Shown: positions 9,553 to 22,362 of the stretch, in pieces
How the letters are laid out: each line of letters starts with the position of its first letter
How positions within the stretch are numbered: position 1 is the stretch's first letter
NCBI GenBank assembly: GCA_963728405.1
Contig: CAVSJV010000007.1
Location: forward strand, 64,001 to 128,000
From: Methanomassiliicoccaceae archaeon
Lineage (GTDB): Archaea > Thermoplasmatota > Thermoplasmata > Methanomassiliicoccales > Methanomassiliicoccaceae
Length of the DNA stretch: 64,000 nucleotides
Direction of reading: 5' to 3'
The notes under the pieces: model-generated
What the model was told of the DNA's origin: nothing
Databases searched by the model: none
Seen by the model: only the letters and a program-made list of their open reading frames with translations
Made by a program: the position numbers and the translations under genes

Positions 9553-10782
9553 ATGATTCGATTTGGTCCAGCGGGCATTCCTCTCTCCTGCAAGGGCAGG
9601 ACCCTCCGTGACGGCATTGAGGACGTACACGGTCTCGGCCTCAATGCGATGGAGGTTCAGATGGTCAGGGTCAACGTCATCGACCGCTTCCCGGACGAGG
9701 AAGAGGTAGGACGGACGCCTTTGGAAGTGGAGAGCGATCTCATTATGGAGATTATGCGGGTCAAGAACAAGAAGGAGGTCCGTATGACCAGGCCCACCGA
9801 GAAGATCAAGGAGGACGACACCTTAATCACCTTGGCTTCCGGGCTCGCTCAGAACTTCAAGGAGCTGAAGGAGCTAGGAGAGATGGGCAAGGAGATGGAC
9901 GTCGAGCTTTCGATGCATACTCCTTATTACATGGACCTCGCTTCGAACTCCGATCTCACCGCGCGGTGCATGGACAACATCCGCTGGGCCGGCACGATGA
10001 CCGACCAGATGGACGGTGGCCTTGTCGTGACCCACCTCGGACTGGCCTCCGACAAGAACAAGAAGGAGGCCAAGAAGAACATCACCGAGAACATCACATC
10101 CATCATGGAGTGGTGGGAGGACAACAAGATCAAGCCGCGCCTCGGCTTCGAGACGAGCGGCCGTCAGGAAGTGTTCGGCTCCCTGGATGAGGTCCTCGAG
10201 ATGTGCGACAGCATCAAGGGCACTGTTCCGGTGATCAACTTCGCCCACGCCCACGCCCGGGAGAGCGGCGGGTTGCGGGAGCCGCAGGACTTCGGCGCTC
10301 TGCTGGACCGCATCAAGGATTACGTCGGCGGGCATTTCTACACCCACTTCTCCGGCGTGGAGCATGAGGGTGGCAATGAGAAGAGGATCACCCCGATCAA
10401 GAAGGGCGATCTCAAGTTCGAACCTCTGGCCGACTTTTTGGCAGAGGAAAATCCCAACATCACCATCATCTCATCGTCCCCGCTGTTGGAGCACGACGCG
10501 ATGTACATGAAGGTCATCTACGAGCGGGTGCTGACCAAGCGCGTCGCCAAGGAGACCAAGGTGAAGAAGGTCGAGACGGGCGGCAAGGACGAGGGCGAGG
10601 AGGAGGAGGGCGAAGAGGAGGGCGAAGAAGAGAAGCCGAGGCCCAAGCCCAAGGTGGAGAAGAAGCCCGCCCCCAAGCCGGCCGAGAAGCCCAAGGCGCC
10701 GGTCAAAGGGCCGACCAAGGTCATGCCCCTCAAGGTCGCGGTGGCCAAGGCCGCCCCGGCCGCGGCGAAGAAGAAGCGGTAG
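9553..10782 (+). CDS. Endonuclease IV (Nfo)-like TIM-barrel protein with an insertion and a long acidic/basic tail
   Basis: MIRFGPAGIP, LSMHTPYY, VVTHLG, GFETSGR, INFAHAHAR, THFSGVE; tail GEEEEGEEEGEEEKPRPKPK...AKKKR. Confidence 0.8.
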   Translation: MIRFGPAGIPLSCKGRTLRDGIEDVHGLGLNAMEVQMVRVNVIDRFPDEEEVGRTPLEVESDLIMEIMRVKNKKEVRMTRPTEKIKEDDTLITLASGLAQNFKELKELGEMGKEMDVELSMHTPYYMDLASNSDLTARCMDNIRWAGTMTDQMDGGLVVTHLGLASDKNKKEAKKNITENITSIMEWWEDNKIKPRLGFETSGRQEVFGSLDEVLEMCDSIKGTVPVINFAHAHARESGGLREPQDFGALLDRIKDYVGGHFYTHFSGVEHEGGNEKRITPIKKGDLKFEPLADFLAEENPNITIISSSPLLEHDAMYMKVIYERVLTKRVAKETKVKKVETGGKDEGEEEEGEEEGEEEKPRPKPKVEKKPAPKPAEKPKAPVKGPTKVMPLKVAVAKAAPAAAKKKR

Positions 10783-11349: not shown

Positions 11350-11989
11350 TCAACGGTCGGCGGTCTGCCGCATCCGCACCGTCGTCCCGTAGTAAGGGTT
11401 CTGGAACTCATCCCAGTAGATGGCGAACGGCCGGGAGCGGATCTTCCCCTCATCGAGGAAGAACGCCTCGATCTCCTTGCTCACCGGATCGATGACGATG
11501 GCCGAGTGGGCCCTCTGGCCGAACATCGAGCGCTGGGTCTGCACATCCCGTCCCGGACATGAAGCAATGGTACGAGGGATGGGAGTGATACCAGCCGACG
11601 ATGACATAGCGGAAGCCGATCTCCTCGAGCGACTCGAACAACTTCTCGAAGGCCCCCCGGTCGAAGCGGACGCTGACGTCGGTCGCGTCCAGGTCCGTCG
11701 TCGCCACGTCCCGGACCAATGCGTAATCGGCGCCGTTGTGCTGGTAGATGCCGCCGAGCAGCAGGCCCATGACCTCTTTCCGCTCGTTTACATGCATCAG
11801 GGCGTGATTGCGGATCTTCTCCTCTGCTACCTTGGAGATGTACAGCTCATAACTTTTCTTGCTCCGCTCCCGGAACTCGGCCTGGCATTTATCGGTGAGC
11901 CACTTATGTGCCTTGATCCGTTCGGACGGGGGAGGAGTGAGCGCCTTGATCTCGCCGACCTGCCCGCCAGTGATCTGGGGTTGGCTCAC
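11350..11989 (-). CDS. JAMM/MPN+ isopeptidase, Rpn11/CSN5-like (one +1 indel at about 11547-11549)
   Basis: EVMGLLLG...VGWYHSHPSYHCFMSGT, continuing in the next frame as DVQTQRSMF...AIVIDP. Removing one G from a GGG run gives the full E-HxH-x7-S-xx-D motif. GTG start overlaps the E2 stop. Confidence 0.9.
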
Positions 11990-12486
11990 TTGCCCACCAC
12001 CTTGGGGGCGGGGGCGGACAGCATTGGTGGCAGGTGCGTCTCGCCATGATTGAAGTATTCGGCCGCGGCGGTGCAGCTGTCGGTGCCGAACGGGCTCGCC
12101 GGATTGGGGCTCATGACCAGGGACTCAACCCCCTTGATGAACGAGATGATCGTAGAATTGAAGCTCCAGTCCTCCAGGAGCTTGGTGCACAGGTGGCCGC
12201 CGTCCTCCGGCATCATGATGTTGGGATGGAAAATCGAGGTCAGCCAAATGACCGTGGGTTTCTCGAACGGATAGTCCTTGCCGACGATCATGCGGAATCG
12301 GTGGTTGTACCGTAGCGCCACCTTCCCGCCCTCGACGACCGGTCCGGGGACCTTGTTCAGCTCGACATCGATCTCAATGGGAAAGGCCGCTCCCGACCCA
12401 AGGGCCGGTGGGGCGCTGACATAGCTCGAGATGGCGCGCAGTTCGTTCCTCAACCTCGACAGCAGGATATCAGCTGGAAGCGGCAC
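11986..12486 (-). CDS. Ubiquitin-conjugating enzyme E2 (UBC fold)
   Basis: RLRNEL helix 1; DYPFEKPTVIWLTSIFHPNI (HPN); GHLCTKLLEDW with catalytic Cys; LVMSPNPASP. Confidence 0.93.
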   Translation of the reverse strand: MPLPADILLSRLRNELRAISSYVSAPPALGSGAAFPIEIDVELNKVPGPVVEGGKVALRYNHRFRMIVGKDYPFEKPTVIWLTSIFHPNIMMPEDGGHLCTKLLEDWSFNSTIISFIKGVESLVMSPNPASPFGTDSCTAAAEYFNHGETHLPPMLSAPAPKVVGK

Positions 12487-12727
12487 GGCATCCGCCCTCG
12501 GGGTCCGGGATTAGCTCCAGCTCATCATTGTTCATGATGGCCGCCTCGACCACCGTCTGCTGACCGCGCAGCAGCTTCTTGCCCCTCCTTAGAACATAGG
12601 CCCCGGCGTCCTTCTCCCAGTACCCCGCCGCGCCCTCGATGATCTCCACCACGGTGTTCTCCGCCTCTAGCTCCATGTCCACCGTCGACCCGCTCTCCGC
12701 GTTCCTGACCTTCACCCTGAGGGGCAT
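12470..12727 (-). CDS. Ubiquitin-like protein precursor (79 aa to GG plus 6-aa extension CRAASS)
   Basis: Beta-grasp pattern aligns by eye to ubiquitin: TVDMELEAENTV with TITLEVEPSDTI, and RGKKLLRGQQTV...LELIPDPEGG with AGKQLEDGRTL...LHLVLRLRGG. Overlaps the E2 start. Confidence 0.88.
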   Translation of the reverse strand: MPLRVKVRNAESGSTVDMELEAENTVVEIIEGAAGYWEKDAGAYVLRRGKKLLRGQQTVVEAAIMNNDELELIPDPEGGCRAASS

Positions 12728-12744
12728 AATATCGTTGTTGCGAG

Positions 12745-12765
12745 ATTAATAATGGCAATTAAAAC
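12745..12765 (-). promoter_or_regulatory. Putative archaeal TATA-box region of the Ubl-E2-JAMM operon
   Basis: Minus-strand GTTTTAATTGCCATTATTAAT, 18-38 nt upstream of the Ubl ATG; no SD, so possibly a leaderless transcript. Confidence 0.45.
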
Positions 12766-13045
12766 TACCGATTGCAATCAGCTAATCTGATACCAAACCT
12801 CTTAGAATCTTCACCGATCAGCCGAATAAATCCAAACCACTTCCCACTTTTTTGTCCAGACAGAATTCATTCCCAGGGATCATTTGGAAAAATACCGGTT
12901 GCCCCCGCATTATTGTTCGAGGGTAGCATATATGTATAGAATCTGTCCCCCTCGCCTAATAATGGCACGCTTGTCTAATCGCATAACAAATGAGGTCGTC
13001 AATGGCCTGGCTAGAATGTCCATGCGACGAACGTTCGAATAGTAT

Positions 13046-14200
13046 TTGAAGATGCGATTCCCCTTGCTAACCCAGAGCAAATTCATGGAGAACAGCTTAG
13101 CGGGGACTTCTCTAAACGAGGCTGAGGGGTTTAGGTCGAAGGTGGTCAAGGAGATCGGCCGGGAGCAACAGATCTTAGAGGATGTCAAAAAGCCCTCCCA
13201 TAGTTACAGGATCAGCTGGACGATCGCTTTGTTCATCATTGGCCTGTACGTGGTCCTCCTGTTCCTCAACCCGGTAGCCTATCTCCTGTGGCTGATCGTC
13301 GCCTTTATCCTCCGGAGCTTCTACTGGATCAGTTGGTTAATCCCTACTACAAGACACAAAGGCTCTAGACCGAAACAGGAGAGACTCAAATTGTCAGGGA
13401 CTATCAAAGGGCCCATCCGCTACCTTATCAAATGGAAGAAGAAGCTCGGATTGGAGCTAGGGACGACCACGCTGGTGACGGGGATGGCCCCACTGGCTCT
13501 AAGCAACTTCATCCTCTTTGGTATCGGCATCGGCCTGGGGATATACTTTGGCCTCATCAGGCACCTTTACGATTACAATACGACCTTGAACATCCTGGCT
13601 GAGATGGCCCTCATACTGGCCGCCTTTGTCATCATGATATTCATAAGGCCCCAGGAGCGAGGATTCATGCGAATGGCCGAGAAGCTCAGGGGGAGATACG
13701 AGTCGGTACAAAAGAGTGGTAGGATCGTTGCGATCATCGTCATCGCCCTCATGGGCCTATTCGTCGCCCTCCTCGGGTTCGTTTTCGTCCTCTCTATGTT
13801 CGCCCCCGGCGGCACCTGGCAATCGATACTCGCCAAGCTAGAGGCGAATGGTCTCTACAACCTTTACCTCCTCTTGCTCATATTCGTCGGTGAGCTGTTC
13901 CTATTACGACACTTCCAAGCCATCTCCAGTAGGAGGATGATAAGGCGGTACCTGAGCGACCGGATCCCCATGCTGAGGGCCGAAGTGTTGGACCCCCTCG
14001 ACGAAGCCATCTCTCGAGCCAAGGCAGCTAATTCCTCCACCGTGGACCAGAAAGCCTTGAAGGACGCCAAGACCAATTATTACAGCACCATAATTTTCGA
14101 TGTGTTCGATCACAACATTTTTGGCTTTTCACAGGTCTATGTGATAGGACCAAAGTTCAGGGTTCTCCTGGACGAGGACGCCTTAGCTCACATTCGTTGA
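13046..14200 (+). CDS. Hypothetical polytopic membrane protein (about 6 TM helices)
   Basis: 384-aa open frame with several hydrophobic segments; visibly lower GC than flanks; start uncertain. Confidence 0.7.
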   Translation: MKMRFPLLTQSKFMENSLAGTSLNEAEGFRSKVVKEIGREQQILEDVKKPSHSYRISWTIALFIIGLYVVLLFLNPVAYLLWLIVAFILRSFYWISWLIPTTRHKGSRPKQERLKLSGTIKGPIRYLIKWKKKLGLELGTTTLVTGMAPLALSNFILFGIGIGLGIYFGLIRHLYDYNTTLNILAEMALILAAFVIMIFIRPQERGFMRMAEKLRGRYESVQKSGRIVAIIVIALMGLFVALLGFVFVLSMFAPGGTWQSILAKLEANGLYNLYLLLLIFVGELFLLRHFQAISSRRMIRRYLSDRIPMLRAEVLDPLDEAISRAKAANSSTVDQKALKDAKTNYYSTIIFDVFDHNIFGFSQVYVIGPKFRVLLDEDALAHIR

Positions 14201-14551
14201 ACTGGATAGTAGGGCGATTTTGATTGATTTATTCGATATTACGAATGAGCTCGGAAGGGGTATTTCATTTTCGGCCGCCTCCCCCGCAAACTATCGACTT
14301 CATGTAGCTATTCTGATAGTGAACTTCCCCTCCTTTAGGGTTGAGTCTCTCACCTCGACCACTGGGCGTCGAGCGACCTTCCTTGCCGCTAATATTTCGA
14401 ATGTCCACCCGAGTGATATTCGGCCGTCAGACCAACATGATGTCGTCCACCGCGGAAGAGGTCACTTACCTACAGATAATAACTTTACAGGGGCTGGCAA
14501 AGCAATGGGTAGCAACTCATCTGGCATGACTCGTTCGAATGAAGGATGTTT

Positions 14552-14903
14552 TCATGGGCCCCCCATGCTCGCTTTTAGTAAAATTGACTCTTCTTGTACC
14601 TCAATGTCCAGACCAGTGGCAAGACGGGATATGAACGACCATCTCTTCATCGCAACGTAGGCAGTCTCGATCGACACGATGGTAGCAAATAGGCTGGCGA
14701 GCAAACCAAACATCCATGATCCTGGAAAGTGGAAGAAAGATGATCCATCGCTTCTCGTGGAGAATGCTACGGCCAAGGTGACCAGTATGTACATTGAGAA
14801 GCATCTTGCGGCTATCTTGATGTCTTCGGAAGCCCATGCAAGAAGGAATGTTATCGGAATAAGGTAGTAGCCCGTGTGGATCTTTAGATATAAAGAACTC
14901 AGT
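14552..14903 (-). pseudogene. C-terminal remnant of a membrane protein (possibly GT-C/GT87-like)
   Basis: Frame reads LSSLYLKIHTGYYLIPITFLLAWASED...MYILVTLAVAF...WMFGLLASLFATIVSIETAYVAMK; an in-frame TAA lies immediately upstream and there is no N-terminal part. Confidence 0.4.
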
Positions 14904-15217
14904 TAACTAAATGGGTCGAAAAGTGTCTGGCATAGCTTTTCTGCTCGGCATTGGCAGAGCAGTTTGGTGCAAAAACATGCCAGACACGACTGGTTCGGAG
15001 CTCAAGATACATAGCGTTGGCATGAGAACGACGAACGATACGTTCGTCGCGGAGAACTGCTCGCGGCGATCATGGTCTCGTACGAGCAATTGAGGGGATG
15101 TGACCTCGATGAGAGATCGCGTCAGAACACCTATTTCTTGATGACTTTTGTATATGATCGTCCAACCGGTTTGTCAGTGAAAGTGCTCGTGGCTATTAAT
15201 CGCTCCTTCGCCCGAGG

Positions 15218-16015
15218 CTATCCGTCCAGATGCATCGGGCAGGCCGGATCGACCGAAAGTTCGAGCTCGTCCCAGGCGTTCCTCAGCCCATTGTAGTGCA
15301 GGACGTGCTTGATGACGGCCTCCTGCCGACGGCAGACGATCTTCAGCGCCTCCCGCACCTGCACCGCGGCGATGAGCGCCGTGGTCGTGATTTCCGCCGG
15401 TACCTTCGGCTCGAAGAACGTCACCTCCGAGCCGGTGCAGGAGTGCCTCCTCTCCAGTATGCGGTAGTGGCTCCGGTTCATTCCACACTGCAGGCACGGG
15501 GTCAAGGGAGGAACGACCACCTGCACCCGGCCAGCGAACCCGTTCGTACCGCCGTCGATGTACGGTACCCCGTTATGGTACGAATGGGCGTTGACATGCA
15601 GCCGCGCCGCCACGTTGTCCAGGCATCCTAGGACGATGTCGTGCTTTTTCCACTCGTCTTCCGGAAGCTCCTCTATCCGCTGTTCGAAGGTGCGGACCTC
15701 CACCGCTGGATCAAGCTCCATGGCCCTCGACGCAACCGCCTCGGTCTTGAACCTCTTGGCCTGCTGGTCCTCCTCGCGGAAGAACACGCAGCGGTTGAGG
15801 TTGGAGCGGACCACCCGGTCCATGTCGATAAGAGTGAGGCGCCTGGCCCCGGCCAGCACTAGGTCCTTCACCGCCTCATTGCCGAGAGCGCCAGCCCCCA
15901 CGACGATGAAGGATGCGCTCTGCACCCGTTCCATATCCAGCCACTCGATCCGTCGGGAGCGCTCCCAGCGGTCCTGGTCGATCTCACCGGCGTGGATGGG
16001 CTCGGTCATTGTCAA
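15218..16015 (-). CDS. E1-like ubiquitin-activating enzyme (ThiF/MoeB/UBA family, UBA3/UBA2-like motifs)
   Basis: IVVGAGALGNE, IDMDRVVRSNLNR, DIVLGCLDNVAARLHVN, PYIDGGTNGFAGRVQV, Zn ligands TPCLQC...ACPMH, candidate catalytic Cys in RHSCT. Confidence 0.9.
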   Translation of the reverse strand: MTMTEPIHAGEIDQDRWERSRRIEWLDMERVQSASFIVVGAGALGNEAVKDLVLAGARRLTLIDMDRVVRSNLNRCVFFREEDQQAKRFKTEAVASRAMELDPAVEVRTFEQRIEELPEDEWKKHDIVLGCLDNVAARLHVNAHSYHNGVPYIDGGTNGFAGRVQVVVPPLTPCLQCGMNRSHYRILERRHSCTGSEVTFFEPKVPAEITTTALIAAVQVREALKIVCRRQEAVIKHVLHYNGLRNAWDELELSVDPACPMHLDG

Positions 16016-16223
16016 GTCGCCTTTCGTTCGGCAATGACATTTATCCTGATTAAATAATATTCCCTATGCTATCACCATTGATTATGTTCTGGTGACTTAT
16101 ATTAACCTTCGATATACTCCATCCTATAGTCAGGTGTAAGGCTACGTTAAATGGATGGTTTGATATGCGGACCTCTCGCTTCTTTCGTGGAGCGATGATG
16201 GAGCATTTGGAAGAGGTGACCTG

Positions 16224-16631
16224 ATGGCCTCGTCCGATGGAAATGGGGCGAGGATCCTGCTCATGGACGATGAGGAGAGCATCCTGGAGGTGACCAGCGA
16301 GATCTTGAGGGTGTTCGGCTATGAGGTCGAGAGCGCTCGTGACGGTGAGGAAGCTCTCAACAAATATCACCGCGCCATGCTCGAAGGAAGGAGGTTCGAC
16401 CTGGTCATCATGGACCTGACCGTGCCTATGGGCATGGGCGGCCAGGATGCGGTGCGCGAACTGCTCAAGATCGATCCCCAGGCCCGGGCCATCGTATCGT
16501 CCGGTCACTCTACTGACCCGATCATCTCTAACTACCGGGCCCACGGGTTCGTAGGGGTCATGCCCAAACCGTACCGGATGGAGGAGCTGGACGCCATCGT
16601 GAAGAAGGCATTGGCATCCGCCCCAGGGTAG
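16224..16631 (+). CDS. Stand-alone response-regulator receiver (CheY-like)
   Basis: RILLMDDE, FDLVIMDLTVP (phospho-Asp), IVSSG, PKPY. Confidence 0.9.
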   Translation: MASSDGNGARILLMDDEESILEVTSEILRVFGYEVESARDGEEALNKYHRAMLEGRRFDLVIMDLTVPMGMGGQDAVRELLKIDPQARAIVSSGHSTDPIISNYRAHGFVGVMPKPYRMEELDAIVKKALASAPG

Positions 16632-21081: not shown

Positions 21082-22362
21082 CTACACGGTTATCCTCGGG
21101 CCATGAAGACGCTTCGCCCTCACCGCGTACTCTTCCGCCTTTTCGGTCATGCCCATAAGGCCGTAGGCGTCCGATAGGCGGAGATACAGTTCGCCGTTCT
21201 CCTTCTCCCTGGCCGCCCCACGGCTCTTGCTGAAGAACCGCACCGCCCCCGAGCCGTCACCCGAACGTAATGATATGGTCCCCAACTGGAAAGAATATTC
21301 TCTCCAGTTCGTCCCCGTCCTTGGCCCCCTGGAAGATGAGGCGGTCCAGTACCTCCTTGGCCTCCCCGAGGCGGCCTGCCTGGATCAGCGTTTCCGCCGT
21401 TTCGCATTCCAGATTGCCGTTCGGCCCCCTGCTCAGCTCACGGGCGGCCCTCAATCGCTGCATGGCGCCATCCAGGTCGCCCTTCGATCGCAGCACCAGC
21501 GCTTCGACCATCAGGCCGTTGAAACGATCCTGGGGAGAAGGCAGCGAGCAAAGTTCCCTCGCCTTCCCGAGGGCGATCTCACTGCTCCCGGCCCGCCGGG
21601 CGATCTCCGCCTGGGCATGGAGTATTTGTCCTCGGTAGCGTTCAGCGGTGGCGGTCACCGAGCAAACGATGTCCAGCAGGTCCCGGTCAGCCGGACCCAG
21701 GGAGTGCGGCCCCTTGGACGCCAGGAGCATCTCCGCCTCACGGGACCGGTTGGCCTTAAGAAGGTGGTAAAGCCGCTCCCGATAGTTGCCATGATCGAGC
21801 CAGTAGTCCGCCGCTTGGGATTGGTATTGTTTCAGCAGATCAGGGGAGACCTGCCCGGGACGTAGGCTCGCAGGTCCGGAGGCATGTCCACCATTCCCTC
21901 CGGGTCGACCGGCAGCAACGATACGGAAGTTAAGGGCAGGGCGGTCCTCTCGAACGGCCGGCGGAACACGCAGGCCTGCGCGAGAACGGTCCTTTGCTCA
22001 ATGTCCAATCCGACCCAGATCTCGGGGCCCTTGCACTTCTTGAGGTCAAGGAAAGGCTGGACATCAATGCCCTCGCTCTCCGCGAACAGATGGATCTTGC
22101 GGGCCCGTTCCTCGCCGGGGGAGGAGAGGAAGTACACCTTGCGCTTGGTCTTTCCCTTTTTTATGTGAACGAGATTTTCCACGACCTCTCCGGCATCCTT
22201 GAGCTTCTTGAGCTCGATGGCCGCGTGGGCCCTCGAGATCCTCAGGGCCGCTGCGATGCCGTCCTGGCTGATGTCCAGGGGAGCGTCGTAGCTGTCGAGG
22301 TACTTGGAATACTGCGCAAGGTGAAGGACTATCCGCTCTCCCACGGTCAGGGTGCCGGGCAT
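21082..22362 (-). CDS. Winged-helix HTH + TPR-repeat protein, tandem paralog (frameshifted)
   Basis: Near-identical N-term LTVGERIVLHLAQYSKY...SQDGIAAALRISRAHAAIELKKLK; TPR-like pieces in ORFs 21257-21730 and 21082-21285. Confidence 0.72.

What the first reader, a model, noticed from the sequence alone, without database searches (positions are those of the whole stretch)
12470..12727. Ubl is a pro-protein (GG|CRAASS) and keeps a K48-equivalent Gly-Lys
Seen: the di-glycine at residues 78-79 is followed by CRAASS before TGA. By-eye alignment puts RG-K50 at ubiquitin's G47-K48. Known (from memory): Caldiarchaeum ubiquitin is also made with a short Cys-initiated extension after GG, which its Rpn11 homolog removes. 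Inference: the co-encoded JAMM is the obligatory maturase, which gives an activation switch, and K48-like chains may form for proteasome targeting.
Basis: partly seen in the sequence, partly recalled or inferred. Interest (0 to 1): 0.8.

Follow-up and report, generated by a model that had tools for sequence, protein, structure and literature searches.

The report
Ubiquitin-like protein with overlap-made tail
A small ubiquitin-like protein of a methanogen-related archaeon really carries six extra residues after its Gly-Gly end, but they arise because its gene runs into the start of the next gene, so this is an ordinary precursor and not a special switch.

Summary
The 85-aa ORF at 12470..12727 (-) ends ...ELIPDPEGG|CRAASS*, and RRG-K50 is present. 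The protein is a confident beta-grasp Ubl. It lies in an E1(ThiF)-Ubl-E2(UBC)-JAMM(Rpn11-like) cassette conserved across the window's order and found in 80 of 301 sampled genomes of its phylum.

- **Tail.** It is not a conserved propeptide. Of 118 database representatives, 40 stop right at GG, and Cys begins only 9 of the 78 tails. The E2 start always lies 2-7 nt after the GG codons. Where no in-frame stop falls in that spacer, the Ubl frame runs into E2 until a TGA formed by E2's conserved Asp/Glu codon. This gives exactly 6 residues in all 11 genomes of the genus.
- **Maturase.** A protease is still logically needed here. The co-encoded JAMM is the natural candidate (complex model 0.92 against a best control of 0.00, possibly from memory of solved complexes). 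JAMM is equally conserved in tail-less lineages.
- **JAMM frameshift.** The window's break is most likely an assembly error, because ArgRS and aRF1 are broken in the same assembly.
- **K50.** It aligns with ubiquitin K48 but is Arg in 15 of 118 representatives and lies in the modelled JAMM interface.

This is a new member of a known kind, of modest interest.

The parts
12491..12727 (-). Mature ubiquitin-like protein, residues M1-G79, ending ELIPDPEGG
   Evidence: ORF and sequence. AlphaFold2 mean pLDDT 88.8 with strand-strand-helix-strand-strand-strand order. Foldseek TM about 0.8 to SUMO, ISG15, ubiquitin, NEDD8 and Caldiarchaeum ubiquitin 6fnn_C. 195 homologs.
12473..12490 (-). Six-residue C-terminal extension CRAASS after Gly-Gly. 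The stop TGA follows at 12470..12472.
   Evidence: pLDDT is below 50 for residues 80-85. The tail is 6 aa in 11 of 11 genomes of the genus, with first residue C, S, F or Y (Ala in the sister-genus genome G015).
12470..12486 (-). 17-nt overlap of the Ubl 3' end with the E2 5' end. The E2 GTG start at 12486 lies 4 nt after the GG codons. The Ubl stop TGA lies inside E2 codons Ala5-Asp6 (gcT GAt).
   Evidence: The E2 N-terminus M-x-L-P-x-D/E-I/V-L is conserved across families, and its start lies 2-7 nt after GG in the 39 loci read.
12578..12580 (-). Lys50 codon (aag) after Gly49, the positional equivalent of ubiquitin Lys48
   Evidence: HMMER profile alignment to ubiquitin chains pairs rrGkkllrG with faGKqLedG. 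The column is K in 103 and R in 15 of 118 representatives.
11986..12486 (-). E2-like ubiquitin-conjugating enzyme, 166 aa, with HPN...C motif (IFHPNIMMPEDGGHLC)
   Evidence: Pfam UQ_con 5.2e-13. Best PDB sequence matches are eukaryotic UBE2S, UBC12 and Rad6, about 2e-9. It is the only UQ_con match in the genome.
11548..11989 (-). JAMM/MPN+ protease, N-terminal part up to the frame break. The GTG start overlaps the E2 stop (GTGA).
   Evidence: Pfam JAB 1.5e-11. The sequence reads ...GWYHSHPSYHCFMSGT, then leaves the frame.
11547..11549 (-). G-run where the window has one base more than its relatives. This breaks the JAMM motif H-x-H-x7-S-x2-D just before the Asp.
   Evidence: sequence; single-base excess against G003 at 11549; the relative's contig X5 leaves out one base at 11547; motif intact in 27 of 30 loci, with 2 cut by locus ends and only the window broken.
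11350..11547 (-). JAMM C-terminal part in the other frame (DVQTQRSMFGQRAHSAIVIDP...)
   Evidence: 98% identical to the intact G003 protein.
15218..16015 (-). E1-like adenylating enzyme (ThiF family), the first gene of the cassette in relatives
   Evidence: Pfam ThiF 7e-52. Best PDB matches are eukaryotic Uba1, Uba6 and Uba7 adenylation domains at 1e-25, ahead of ThiF at 3e-18 and MoeB at 6e-15. It lies directly upstream of the Ubl gene in 11 of the 12 relatives' genomes read.
12728..15217 (.). Lower-GC insertion that separates E1 from Ubl in this genome, including a 384-aa membrane-protein ORF at 13046..14200 (+)
   Evidence: GC is 43-55% against 60-64% in the flanks. Relatives other than G003 have E1 and Ubl 10-110 nt apart. 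No curated family for the ORF and no Rfam match.

Best explanation
The ORF encodes the modifier of a eukaryote-like but RING-less E1-Ubl-E2-JAMM conjugation cassette that is widespread in the window's phylum (Thermoplasmatota-type, judging by the names sources give its homologs).

The six residues after Gly-Gly come from how the Ubl and E2 genes are coupled. The E2 start codon always sits 2-7 nt after the GG codons. The conserved Glu-Gly-Gly codons (GAG GGC GG) probably also serve as E2's Shine-Dalgarno site. Lineages with an in-frame stop in that short spacer make a ready-made Ubl ending in GG. In this genus the codon after GG is a sense codon (TGC here). The Ubl frame therefore reads out of frame through E2's conserved N-terminal codons (M-P-L-P-A-D) until the TGA formed by xxT-GAy at E2's Asp/Glu6. 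That fixes the tail at 6 residues and dictates residues 2-5.

The tail is disordered and must be removed before E1 can adenylate Gly79. The adjacent Rpn11-like JAMM most likely does this in addition to its conserved job of deconjugation.

Shown: the sequence, the overlap geometry, the family-wide variability, the fold, and the Rpn11/UBC/Uba1 affinities. Inferred: cleavage by JAMM, the Shine-Dalgarno role, and conjugation itself.

K50 is the positional equivalent of ubiquitin K48 and the only nearly invariant Lys. Its conservation as K or R fits a basic recognition patch at least as well as a chain-acceptor role.
For: **Overlap geometry.**
- In 39 loci from 38 genomes the tail is 0 aa in 15, 1 aa in 8, 2 aa in 1, 5 aa in 1, 6 aa in 13 and 9 aa in 1.
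- The start codon preceding E2's x-L-P lies 2-7 nt after GG in all of them. The script resolved 37. For 4 it picked an upstream in-frame GTG, and for L013 and L046 the ATG is read by eye from the printed DNA.
- Tail-less genomes read GGA TGA/TAA/TAG then ATG. One-residue tails are ATGA-type overlaps.

**Family variability.** Of 118 representatives, tail length is 0 aa in 40, 1 aa in 22, 2 aa in 16, 6 aa in 23 and other lengths in 17. The first residue is A 18, N 13, C 9, Y 9, S 8 and others.

**JAMM.**
- The motif is intact in 27 of 30 loci whatever the tail.
- The intact G003 orthologue best matches Rpn11 (5e-16), CSN5 (2e-13) and CsRpn11 (2.8e-11).
- Complex model of G003 JAMM + Ubl + Zn: score 0.92, best of 3 controls 0.00. 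That mark was reached by 58 of 80 solved complexes and 2 of 110 mismatched pairs. The runs agree in at least 93% of contacts and the partner's pLDDT is at least 90.
- In the model, Ubl residues 73-82 touch JAMM residues 72-76, 135, 137 and 145-148, while Ubl 47 and 49-52 touch JAMM 114-118.
- The precedent that uncleaved pro-ubiquitin cannot be activated by E1 is in PMC5654768.

**Other.** The 16S 3' end ...GGATCACCTCCT is present in the genome. The tail has pLDDT below 50.
Against: - No biochemical or expression data exist. No RNA run held the stretch.
- The window's own JAMM is frame-broken inside its catalytic motif. If that is real, the proposed maturase is missing in this strain.
- The complex model may pass from memory of solved Rpn11-ubiquitin and CsRpn11-CsUb complexes. 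It was also run with my own alignments and a riding zinc, unlike the calibration.
- A constant 6-residue tail kept across a whole genus could also reflect selection for a propeptide. The overlap explains its sequence but does not exclude a use.
- The Shine-Dalgarno role of the E-G-G codons is an inference from 4-5 complementary bases.
Confidence: 0.78

Rival explanations
1. The Cys-initiated extension is a selected propeptide that makes JAMM an obligatory, regulated activation switch, and K50 builds K48-like chains that send targets to the proteasome.
For: - The tail is present in 11 of 11 genomes of the genus.
- Caldiarchaeum's propeptide also starts with Cys and is removed by Rpn11.
- K50 aligns with K48 and is the only nearly invariant Lys in the 46-sequence alignment.
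- In Caldiarchaeum a Lys near the K48 position (K53) was modified in vitro.
Against: - 40 of 118 representatives have no tail, and Cys is first in only 9 of 78 tails.
- Tail residues 2-5 and the stop are fixed by the E2 codons.
- JAMM is equally conserved without a tail.
- Column 50 is Arg in 15 of 118 representatives, and Ser or Arg in three of the four genomes read from the most divergent family.
- K50 lies in the modelled JAMM interface.
Confidence: 0.12
2. The system is decaying in this strain. The JAMM frameshift is real, the precursor cannot be trimmed, and the Ubl is not conjugated.
For: The window has one extra G in the run at 11547-11549, which removes the catalytic Asp from the frame. 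E1 has been separated from the Ubl gene by a 2.5-kb lower-GC insertion.
Against: - The same assembly shows frame breaks in arginyl-tRNA synthetase, aRF1 and a PurP-like gene within about 12 kb, several at single-base indels. A living cell could not tolerate these, so indel errors are the likelier cause.
- All other cassette genes are open and 90-100% identical to those of G003.
- A second JAMM (Prok-JAB type) exists elsewhere in the genome.
Confidence: 0.1
3. The tail is an artefact: a miscalled stop (TGA read as TGC) in this assembly.
For: The assembly carries many single-base errors. TGC is one substitution away from TGA.
Against: Eleven of 11 genomes of the genus, one of a sister genus and many database proteins have a sense codon and a 6-residue tail. 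Two public contigs are identical to the window across the site.
Confidence: 0.02
4. The protein is a sulfur carrier of the ThiS/MoaD kind working only with the ThiF-like E1, not a protein modifier.
For: The E1 is short (265 aa) and hits ThiF/MoeB models below their cut-offs. The Ubl misses Pfam ubiquitin.
Against: - The operon includes a UBC-fold E2 with HPN...C and an Rpn11-like JAMM.
- The E1 matches Uba1 and Uba6 better than ThiF or MoeB.
- The nearest folds are SUMO, ISG15 and ubiquitin.
- A separate ThiF-type gene exists in the genome.
Confidence: 0.04

Closest known systems
Caldiarchaeum subterraneum ubiquitin system (CsUb, E1, E2, RING srfp, CsRpn11)
   Same: Beta-grasp modifier ending in Gly-Gly and made as a short-tailed precursor. 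UBC-type E2. E1 closer to Uba1 than to MoeB. Rpn11-like JAMM beside the operon. Its JAMM is shown to cut exactly after GG, and the precursor is refractory to E1 (PMC5654768 and PMC6043591, passages; Foldseek hit 6fnn_C).
   Different: - No RING E3 in the cassette. The genome gives only a sub-threshold RING_2 hit about 220 kb away.
- The Ubl is too divergent for Pfam ubiquitin.
- Gene order is E1-Ubl-E2-JAMM on one strand.
- The tail is 6 residues made by overlap with E2, and is absent in a third of the family.
- The host is a euryarchaeal lineage, not Aigarchaeota or Asgard.
'JAMM-3' class of prokaryotic JAMMs found in Ub-E1-E2 operons without E3 (Fuchs et al. 2018, PMC6043591, section 6 read in full)
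   Same: JAMM more similar to Rpn11/CSN5 than to desampylases, encoded with Ub-, E1- and E2-homologs and no RING protein. Fort et al. 2015 (PMC4453063, passages) had already singled out a Methanomassiliicoccus luminyensis MPN protein as Rpn11-related.
   Different: Those papers give no account, in the text I could read, of the Ubl, its tail or the E2 overlap in this lineage. Their cluster-map membership lists are in figures or supplements that I could not see.
Eukaryotic ubiquitin, SUMO and NEDD8 precursors
   Same: C-terminal extension after Gly-Gly that must be removed before E1 activation. A Gly-Lys in the turn equivalent to G47-K48.
   Different: Eukaryotic precursors are trimmed mostly by cysteine proteases. 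Their tails are not made by gene overlap. K48 is invariant in ubiquitin (recalled), whereas here it alternates with Arg.
Bacterial BilABCD / CBASS Cap2-Cap3 ubiquitin-like defence systems
   Same: The same four activities: Ubl, E2, JAB protease and E1.
   Different: - PADLOC gives only weak generic hits: BilD 28 bits, E1-E2 about 49 bits, JAB about 23 bits, and none for the Ubl or E2.
- The locus is a fixed, syntenic chromosomal site between a SIS-domain gene and tryptophanyl-tRNA synthetase across an order, not a variable defence island.
Archaeal SAMP/UbaA/HvJAMM1 sampylation
   Same: Beta-grasp modifier with a GG end, a ThiF-type E1 and a JAMM deconjugase.
   Different: Sampylation needs no E2. 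The JAMM here scores 30 bits against a 130-bit cut-off for the desampylase model, and the genome has a separate Prok-JAB gene.

Membership tests
Ubiquitin-like protein modifiers (beta-grasp, conjugatable) | Beta-grasp fold | tested here: met
   AlphaFold2 pLDDT 88.8, pTM 0.77. Foldseek probability 1.00 and TM about 0.8 to SUMO1, ISG15, ubiquitin, NEDD8 and CsUb.
Ubiquitin-like protein modifiers (beta-grasp, conjugatable) | C-terminal Gly-Gly exposed or exposable | tested here: met
   PDPEGG in 118 of 120 listed homologs. It is terminal in 40 and followed by 1-14 residues in 78.
Ubiquitin-like protein modifiers (beta-grasp, conjugatable) | Dedicated E1 and E2 encoded with it | tested here: met
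   ThiF-Ubl-E2-JAMM are contiguous in 11 of the 12 relatives' genomes read, and also in two genomes of other classes.
Ubiquitin-like protein modifiers (beta-grasp, conjugatable) | Isopeptide conjugation to target lysines | not testable with these tools
   Needs proteomics or in-vitro reconstitution.
Ubiquitin proper (Pfam PF00240) | Score above the family's gathering threshold | tested here: not met
   No PF00240 hit for the protein or anywhere in the genome at E <= 0.1. The profile against single ubiquitin chains gives E 0.45-1.5, significant only on polyubiquitin by summing repeats.
Pro-ubiquitin type precursor processed by Rpn11-like JAMM (Caldiarchaeum type) | Extension after GG present in the gene | tested here: met
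   CRAASS, present throughout the genus.
Pro-ubiquitin type precursor processed by Rpn11-like JAMM (Caldiarchaeum type) | Extension conserved across the family | tested here: not met
   0 aa in 40 of 118 representatives. Lengths range 0-14 with no conserved sequence.
Pro-ubiquitin type precursor processed by Rpn11-like JAMM (Caldiarchaeum type) | Adjacent JAMM with intact E...HxHx7SxxD and Rpn11 affinity | tested here: inconclusive
   Intact and Rpn11-like in relatives. In the window the motif is broken by one extra base, probably an assembly error.
Pro-ubiquitin type precursor processed by Rpn11-like JAMM (Caldiarchaeum type) | Cleavage exactly after GG by that JAMM | not testable with these tools
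   Only a complex model is available: 0.92 against a best control of 0.00, which may be from memory of solved complexes.
Caldiarchaeum/Asgard complete Ub toolkit | RING-type E3 in or beside the operon | tested here: not met
   No such gene appears between the flanking SIS and TrpRS genes in the 12 relatives read. The best RING_2 hit in the genome scores 22.8 bits, below the 27.3 cut-off, in a zinc-ribbon protein far away.
K48-equivalent acceptor lysine | Lys following Gly in the strand 3-strand 4 turn, aligned with ubiquitin G47-K48 | tested here: met
   HMMER profile alignment. G49-K50 lie between model strands 44-48 and 51-53.
K48-equivalent acceptor lysine | Lys invariant in the family | tested here: not met
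   K in 103 and R in 15 of 118 representatives. GSK, GSK and GRS in three genomes of the most divergent family.
Bil-type antiphage ubiquitin-like system | Matches to BilA/B/C/D models and a defence-island context | tested here: not met
   Only BilD at 28 bits, with no BilA/B/C. The locus is syntenic and core across the order.

The most novel reading that the evidence does not exclude
A whole archaeal phylum outside Asgard and TACK carries a vertically kept, RING-less, eukaryote-like ubiquitylation cassette: E1, Ubl, E2 and an Rpn11-like protease. Whether the modifier is born ready or as a precursor is set only by where the stop falls relative to the coupled E2 start. Nature has therefore produced matched 'with propeptide' and 'without propeptide' lineages. 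In the tailed lineages JAMM trimming could have become a real rate-limiting activation step, and the nearly invariant K50 could build K48-like chains read by the archaeal proteasome/Cdc48 machinery.
Probability: 0.15. Interest if true: 0.65.

Novelty: new member of a known kind. Interest (0 to 1): 0.38.

Why it matters
The specific claim, a ubiquitin-like precursor trimmed by a JAMM protease, repeats what has been shown biochemically for Caldiarchaeum and is standard for eukaryotic ubiquitin, SUMO and NEDD8.

Two things are worth keeping. First, there is a simple genetic explanation for why such tails appear and vanish. The E2 start is anchored a few bases after the Gly-Gly codons, so loss of one stop codon yields a short precursor whose sequence is dictated by the next gene. 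This warns against reading function into such tails. Second, the cassette itself (E1-Ubl-E2-Rpn11-like JAMM, no RING) is conserved at one chromosomal site across an order that includes cultivable methanogens, and was found in 80 of 301 sampled genomes of the phylum. My literature searches found only a passing note on its JAMM. It could therefore serve as a tractable euryarchaeal model for minimal E2-dependent ubiquitylation.

Tried and rejected
- **Expression.** No RNA holder was listed for the stretch, so nothing can be said about expression.
- **Reads.** No public run held more than 0.15 of the sampled words. The contigs laid confirm the GG-TGC junction in X1 and X2 (one study, possibly the source). 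No contig of the same strain covers the JAMM break. Only a roughly 90%-identical relative (X5) does, and it lacks the extra base. The break could therefore not be settled from reads.
- **Family libraries.** NCBIfam has no family for the Ubl or E2. PADLOC gives no defence-system assignment. Pfam gives only a sub-threshold YukD hit for the Ubl. Rfam finds nothing in 12400..16300.
- **Fusion precursors.** Open frames of 728 and 400 aa around the Ubl in G095 and G124 looked like possible E1-Ubl-E2-JAMM fusions. On reading them they are spurious upstream open frames in very GC-rich DNA, and the genes are separate. I did not run the 'longer' or 'shorter' protein search, so I make no claim about fused forms elsewhere.
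- **RING E3.** Only a sub-threshold hit was found, in a zinc-ribbon protein. It is not accepted as an E3.
- **Literature.** Searches found no paper on a Methanomassiliicoccales or Thermoplasmatota Ubl/E2 operon in the held library. Grau-Bove et al. (PMC4327156, passages), Koonin 2015 (PMC4571572, passages) and PMC11354881 (passages) do not mention it. PMC7203096 (passages) held nothing relevant. Supplements are closed. Supplementary Fig. 1 of PMC5654768 and the cluster-map membership of PMC6043591 may list this lineage, which would lower the novelty further.
- The search of protein representatives, the protein-atlas search, the second structure job and two of three homolog searches were not used.
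Full report
**What is there.** On the minus strand, 12470..12727 encodes an 85-residue protein, MPLRVKV...ELIPDPEGGCRAASS.
- Gly78-Gly79 are ggc gga. Six sense codons follow (tgc cgt gcc gct tcc agc), then TGA.
- Directly downstream on the same strand lies a 166-residue UBC-fold E2 (Pfam UQ_con 5.2e-13, motif HPN...C). Its GTG start at 12486 is 17 nt upstream of the Ubl stop.
- A JAMM/MPN+ protease follows (Pfam JAB 1.5e-11). Its GTG start overlaps the E2 stop.
- A ThiF-family E1 lies at 15218..16015 (7e-52).

**What the protein is.**
- Pfam gives only a sub-threshold YukD hit, and no ubiquitin hit. The genome as a whole has no PF00240 match.
- An AlphaFold2 model built on 46 homologs is confident (pLDDT 88.8). 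It has the beta-grasp order of elements and a disordered tail, with pLDDT below 50 for residues 80-85.
- Foldseek places it with SUMO, ISG15, ubiquitin, NEDD8 and Caldiarchaeum ubiquitin at TM about 0.8.
- A profile of the family finds essentially only ubiquitin chains in the PDB. It is weak per domain, at E 0.45-1.5 on single ubiquitins, and significant only by summing repeats on polyubiquitin.
- The partners look eukaryote-like. The E2 best matches UBE2S, UBC12 and Rad6. The E1 best matches Uba1, Uba6 and Uba7, ahead of ThiF and MoeB. The intact JAMM of the sister genome G003 best matches Rpn11 (5e-16), then CSN5, then Caldiarchaeum Rpn11.

**How widespread it is.**
- The protein has 195 database homologs, named by their sources as Methanomassiliicoccales, Thermoplasmata or 'Methanobacteriota'.
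- It was found in 50 of 61 genomes of the window's relatives and in 80 of 301 genomes sampled across the phylum.
- In 11 of the 12 relatives' genomes whose surroundings I read, the genes are contiguous as E1-Ubl-E2-JAMM. They lie between a SIS-domain gene plus an AP-endonuclease-2-fold gene on one side and, in most, tryptophanyl-tRNA synthetase on the other.
- Two genomes of other classes have the same four-gene order.
- It is therefore a core, syntenic cassette and not a defence island. PADLOC gives nothing specific.
- In the window and in G003, a lower-GC insertion separates E1 from the Ubl gene.

**The tail.** Among 118 database representatives that carry the invariant PDPEGG, tail length is 0 aa in 40, 1 aa in 22, 2 aa in 16, 6 aa in 23 and other lengths up to 14 aa in 17. 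The first tail residue is A 18, N 13, C 9, Y 9, S 8, I 7, R 6 and others. So the tail is neither conserved nor typically Cys-initiated.

The DNA explains it.
- E2 begins M-x-L-P-x-(D/E)-(I/V)-L in every family, and its start codon lies 2-7 nt after the GG codons in all 39 loci read.
- In 15 of these loci a stop directly follows GG (GGA TGA ATG..., GGA TAA ATG..., GGC TAG ...ATG).
- One-residue tails are ATGA-type overlaps.
- In all 11 genomes of the window's genus and in one of a sister genus, the codon after GG is a sense codon (TGC, TCC, TTC, TAC, TAT, GCC), and four bases separate GG from E2's GTG or ATG.
- The Ubl frame then reads E2's first codons out of frame. Residue 2 is N+GT or N+AT of the start codon (Arg, Ser, His). 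Residue 3 is G plus two bases of E2 codon 2 (Ala, Gly, Asp). Residue 4 is xCT (Ala, Pro). Residue 5 is xCC (Ser, Pro).
- The stop is the TGA made by the last base of E2 codon 5 and the GA of its conserved Asp/Glu6.
- This accounts for the constant length of 6 and the pattern x-[RSH]-[AGD]-[AP]-[SP]-x.
- TGC and TAY are one substitution away from the TGA, TAA or TAG that occupies this very codon in tail-less genomes. That fits a simple stop loss (inference).
- The conserved Glu-Gly-Gly codons contain GAGG 8-9 nt before the E2 start. The genome's 16S rRNA ends ...GGATCACCTCCT. These codons probably serve as E2's ribosome-binding site, which would explain why the E2 start is pinned next to GG (inference).

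**Is the sense codon real?** Yes. Besides the 12 genomes above, two public contigs (X1 and X2, one study, possibly the source sample) are identical to the window over 12290..12595.

**JAMM as maturase.**
- E1 enzymes adenylate the free carboxylate of the last Gly. For Caldiarchaeum, the nine-residue propeptide CGEPIRRAA blocks E1 and is removed precisely after GG by its Rpn11 homolog (PMC5654768 and PMC6043591, passages).
- By analogy, the tail here must be removed, and the co-encoded Rpn11-like JAMM is the obvious enzyme.
- I modelled the intact G003 JAMM with the identical Ubl precursor and zinc. The score was 0.92, with the best of 3 controls at 0.00. That mark was reached by 58 of 80 solved complexes and 2 of 110 mismatched pairs. 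The runs agree in at least 93% of contacts and the partner's pLDDT is at least 90.
- In the model, the Ubl C-terminus (residues 73-82) touches the catalytic residues (E72 region, H135, H137, S145-D148).
- Like complexes are solved, so this pass may be from memory. The run also used my own alignments and a riding ligand. It shows likeness, not cleavage.
- Against the idea that trimming is what the JAMM is for: its motif is intact in 27 of 30 loci whatever the tail, including the 13 tail-less loci that were not cut (2 further loci are cut by their ends). Its conserved role is more likely deconjugation, with trimming as an extra task wherever a tail exists.

**The broken JAMM.**
- The window reads tcc ggg acg gga tgt..., with one G more than every relative. 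The frame leaves H-S-H-P-x7-S-G-T just before the Asp and resumes in another frame at DVQTQRSMF.... A relative's contig also lacks that base.
- In the same assembly, long intact ORFs of relatives are split between frames at many places in the next roughly 20 kb. Several coincide with single-base indels against G003.
- Three of the split genes are arginyl-tRNA synthetase, aRF1 and a DUF1246/DUF1297 (PurP-like) gene.
- A second ThiF-type gene on another contig is split as well.
- A cell cannot live with broken ArgRS and aRF1, so the assembly carries indel errors. I rate the JAMM break as an artefact at about 85%. It could not be settled from reads.

**K50.**
- The profile alignment pairs ...rrGkkllrG... 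with ubiquitin ...faGKqLedG... and the terminal GG with G75-G76.
- In the model, G49-K50 sit in the turn between strands 44-48 and 51-53. Positional equivalence to G47-K48 is therefore supported, although no residue-level superposition was available.
- K50 is the only nearly invariant Lys in the 46-sequence alignment, which makes it the best candidate if chains form.
- However, the column is Arg in 15 of 118 representatives, including five RRGRR with no Lys in the pentad. Three genomes of the most divergent family read GSK, GSK and GRS.
- R47, G49, K50, K51 and L52 are in the modelled interface with the invariant F114-E115...F118 of JAMM.
- A Lys/Arg alternation fits a basic recognition patch at least as well as an acceptor. 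Chain formation and proteasome targeting are untested.

**Comparison with the known.**
- The closest characterised system is the Caldiarchaeum Ub/E1/E2/RING/Rpn11 set. This one lacks a RING E3 in the cassette. The genome has only a sub-threshold RING_2 hit in a distant zinc-ribbon protein.
- It fits the class that Fuchs et al. 2018 sketched as 'JAMM-3': JAMMs nearer to Rpn11 and CSN5, found in Ub-E1-E2 operons without E3 (section 6 read in full).
- Fort et al. 2015 had noted a Methanomassiliicoccus luminyensis MPN protein as Rpn11-related.
- I found no paper in the held library describing the Ubl, the E2 or the tail in this lineage. Supplements were closed and may list it.

**Verdict.** The 'activation switch', the significance of the Cys and the K48-chain idea are not supported. 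The tail is best explained as a genus-level by-product of Ubl-E2 gene overlap. This is a new member of a known kind, with modest interest for the finding itself and somewhat more for the little-described, phylum-wide RING-less cassette.

Noticed in passing
window about 20264, 21281-21293, 21825-21854, 24681, 26772, 28383, 29583, 31059, 32263, 34073: Long ORFs that are intact in relatives (G003, G008) are split between reading frames in this assembly. They include arginyl-tRNA synthetase, aRF1 and a DUF1246/DUF1297 (PurP-like) gene. Several breaks coincide with single-base indels. This points to indel errors in the assembly, so frame breaks in this window should not be read as pseudogenes.
   Followed up: partly
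window 12728-15217: A lower-GC stretch (43-55% against 60-64%) is inserted between the E1 and Ubl genes, which are adjacent in 11 of the 12 relatives' genomes read. It holds a 384-aa multi-pass membrane ORF with no curated family (13046..14200 +) and about 1 kb without a convincing ORF. In G003 the same junction holds a different insert, an 864-aa response-regulator/PAS/histidine-kinase gene.
   Followed up: partly
G000:C2:78525-79218 (outside the window): A second ThiF/MoeB-type E1 gene matches the Pfam model in two pieces in different frames (positions 1-91 and 88-237). This is another likely indel error, and probably the sulfur-carrier/SAMP-type E1.
   Followed up: no
G000:C17:165116-165409 (outside the window): A separate Prok-JAB type JAMM (44 bits, 132-aa open frame) exists in the genome. 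It is the likely desampylase-type paralogue and a possible alternative trimmer.
   Followed up: no
L051:1051-1920 (-) = G000:C7 near 299,000 (outside the window): A 289-aa protein has a RING-H2-like Cys/His pattern (RING_2 at 22.8 bits, below cut-off) followed by several double zinc ribbons. It is the only, and weak, candidate for an E3 in this genome.
   Followed up: partly
relatives: genus g3 (G012, G016, G018, G020): The Ubl was not found with this query in 4 of 4 near-complete genomes of one genus of the window's own family, although it is present in most other genera of the order. This may be a lineage-specific loss of the cassette.
   Followed up: no
L056 (G111:C75) and L057 (G128:C52): Some genomes of other classes carry a second, divergent Ubl copy (29-35% identical). 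The copy read in L056 ends in PDPQGG and lacks the Gly-Lys (...LMLNNQVLPAG...).
   Followed up: no
window 10593-10663: The AP-endonuclease-2-fold ORF (9553..10782 +) ends in a Glu/Lys/Pro-rich low-complexity tail. That tail differs from G003 by 3-nt and 48-nt in-frame indels.
   Followed up: no
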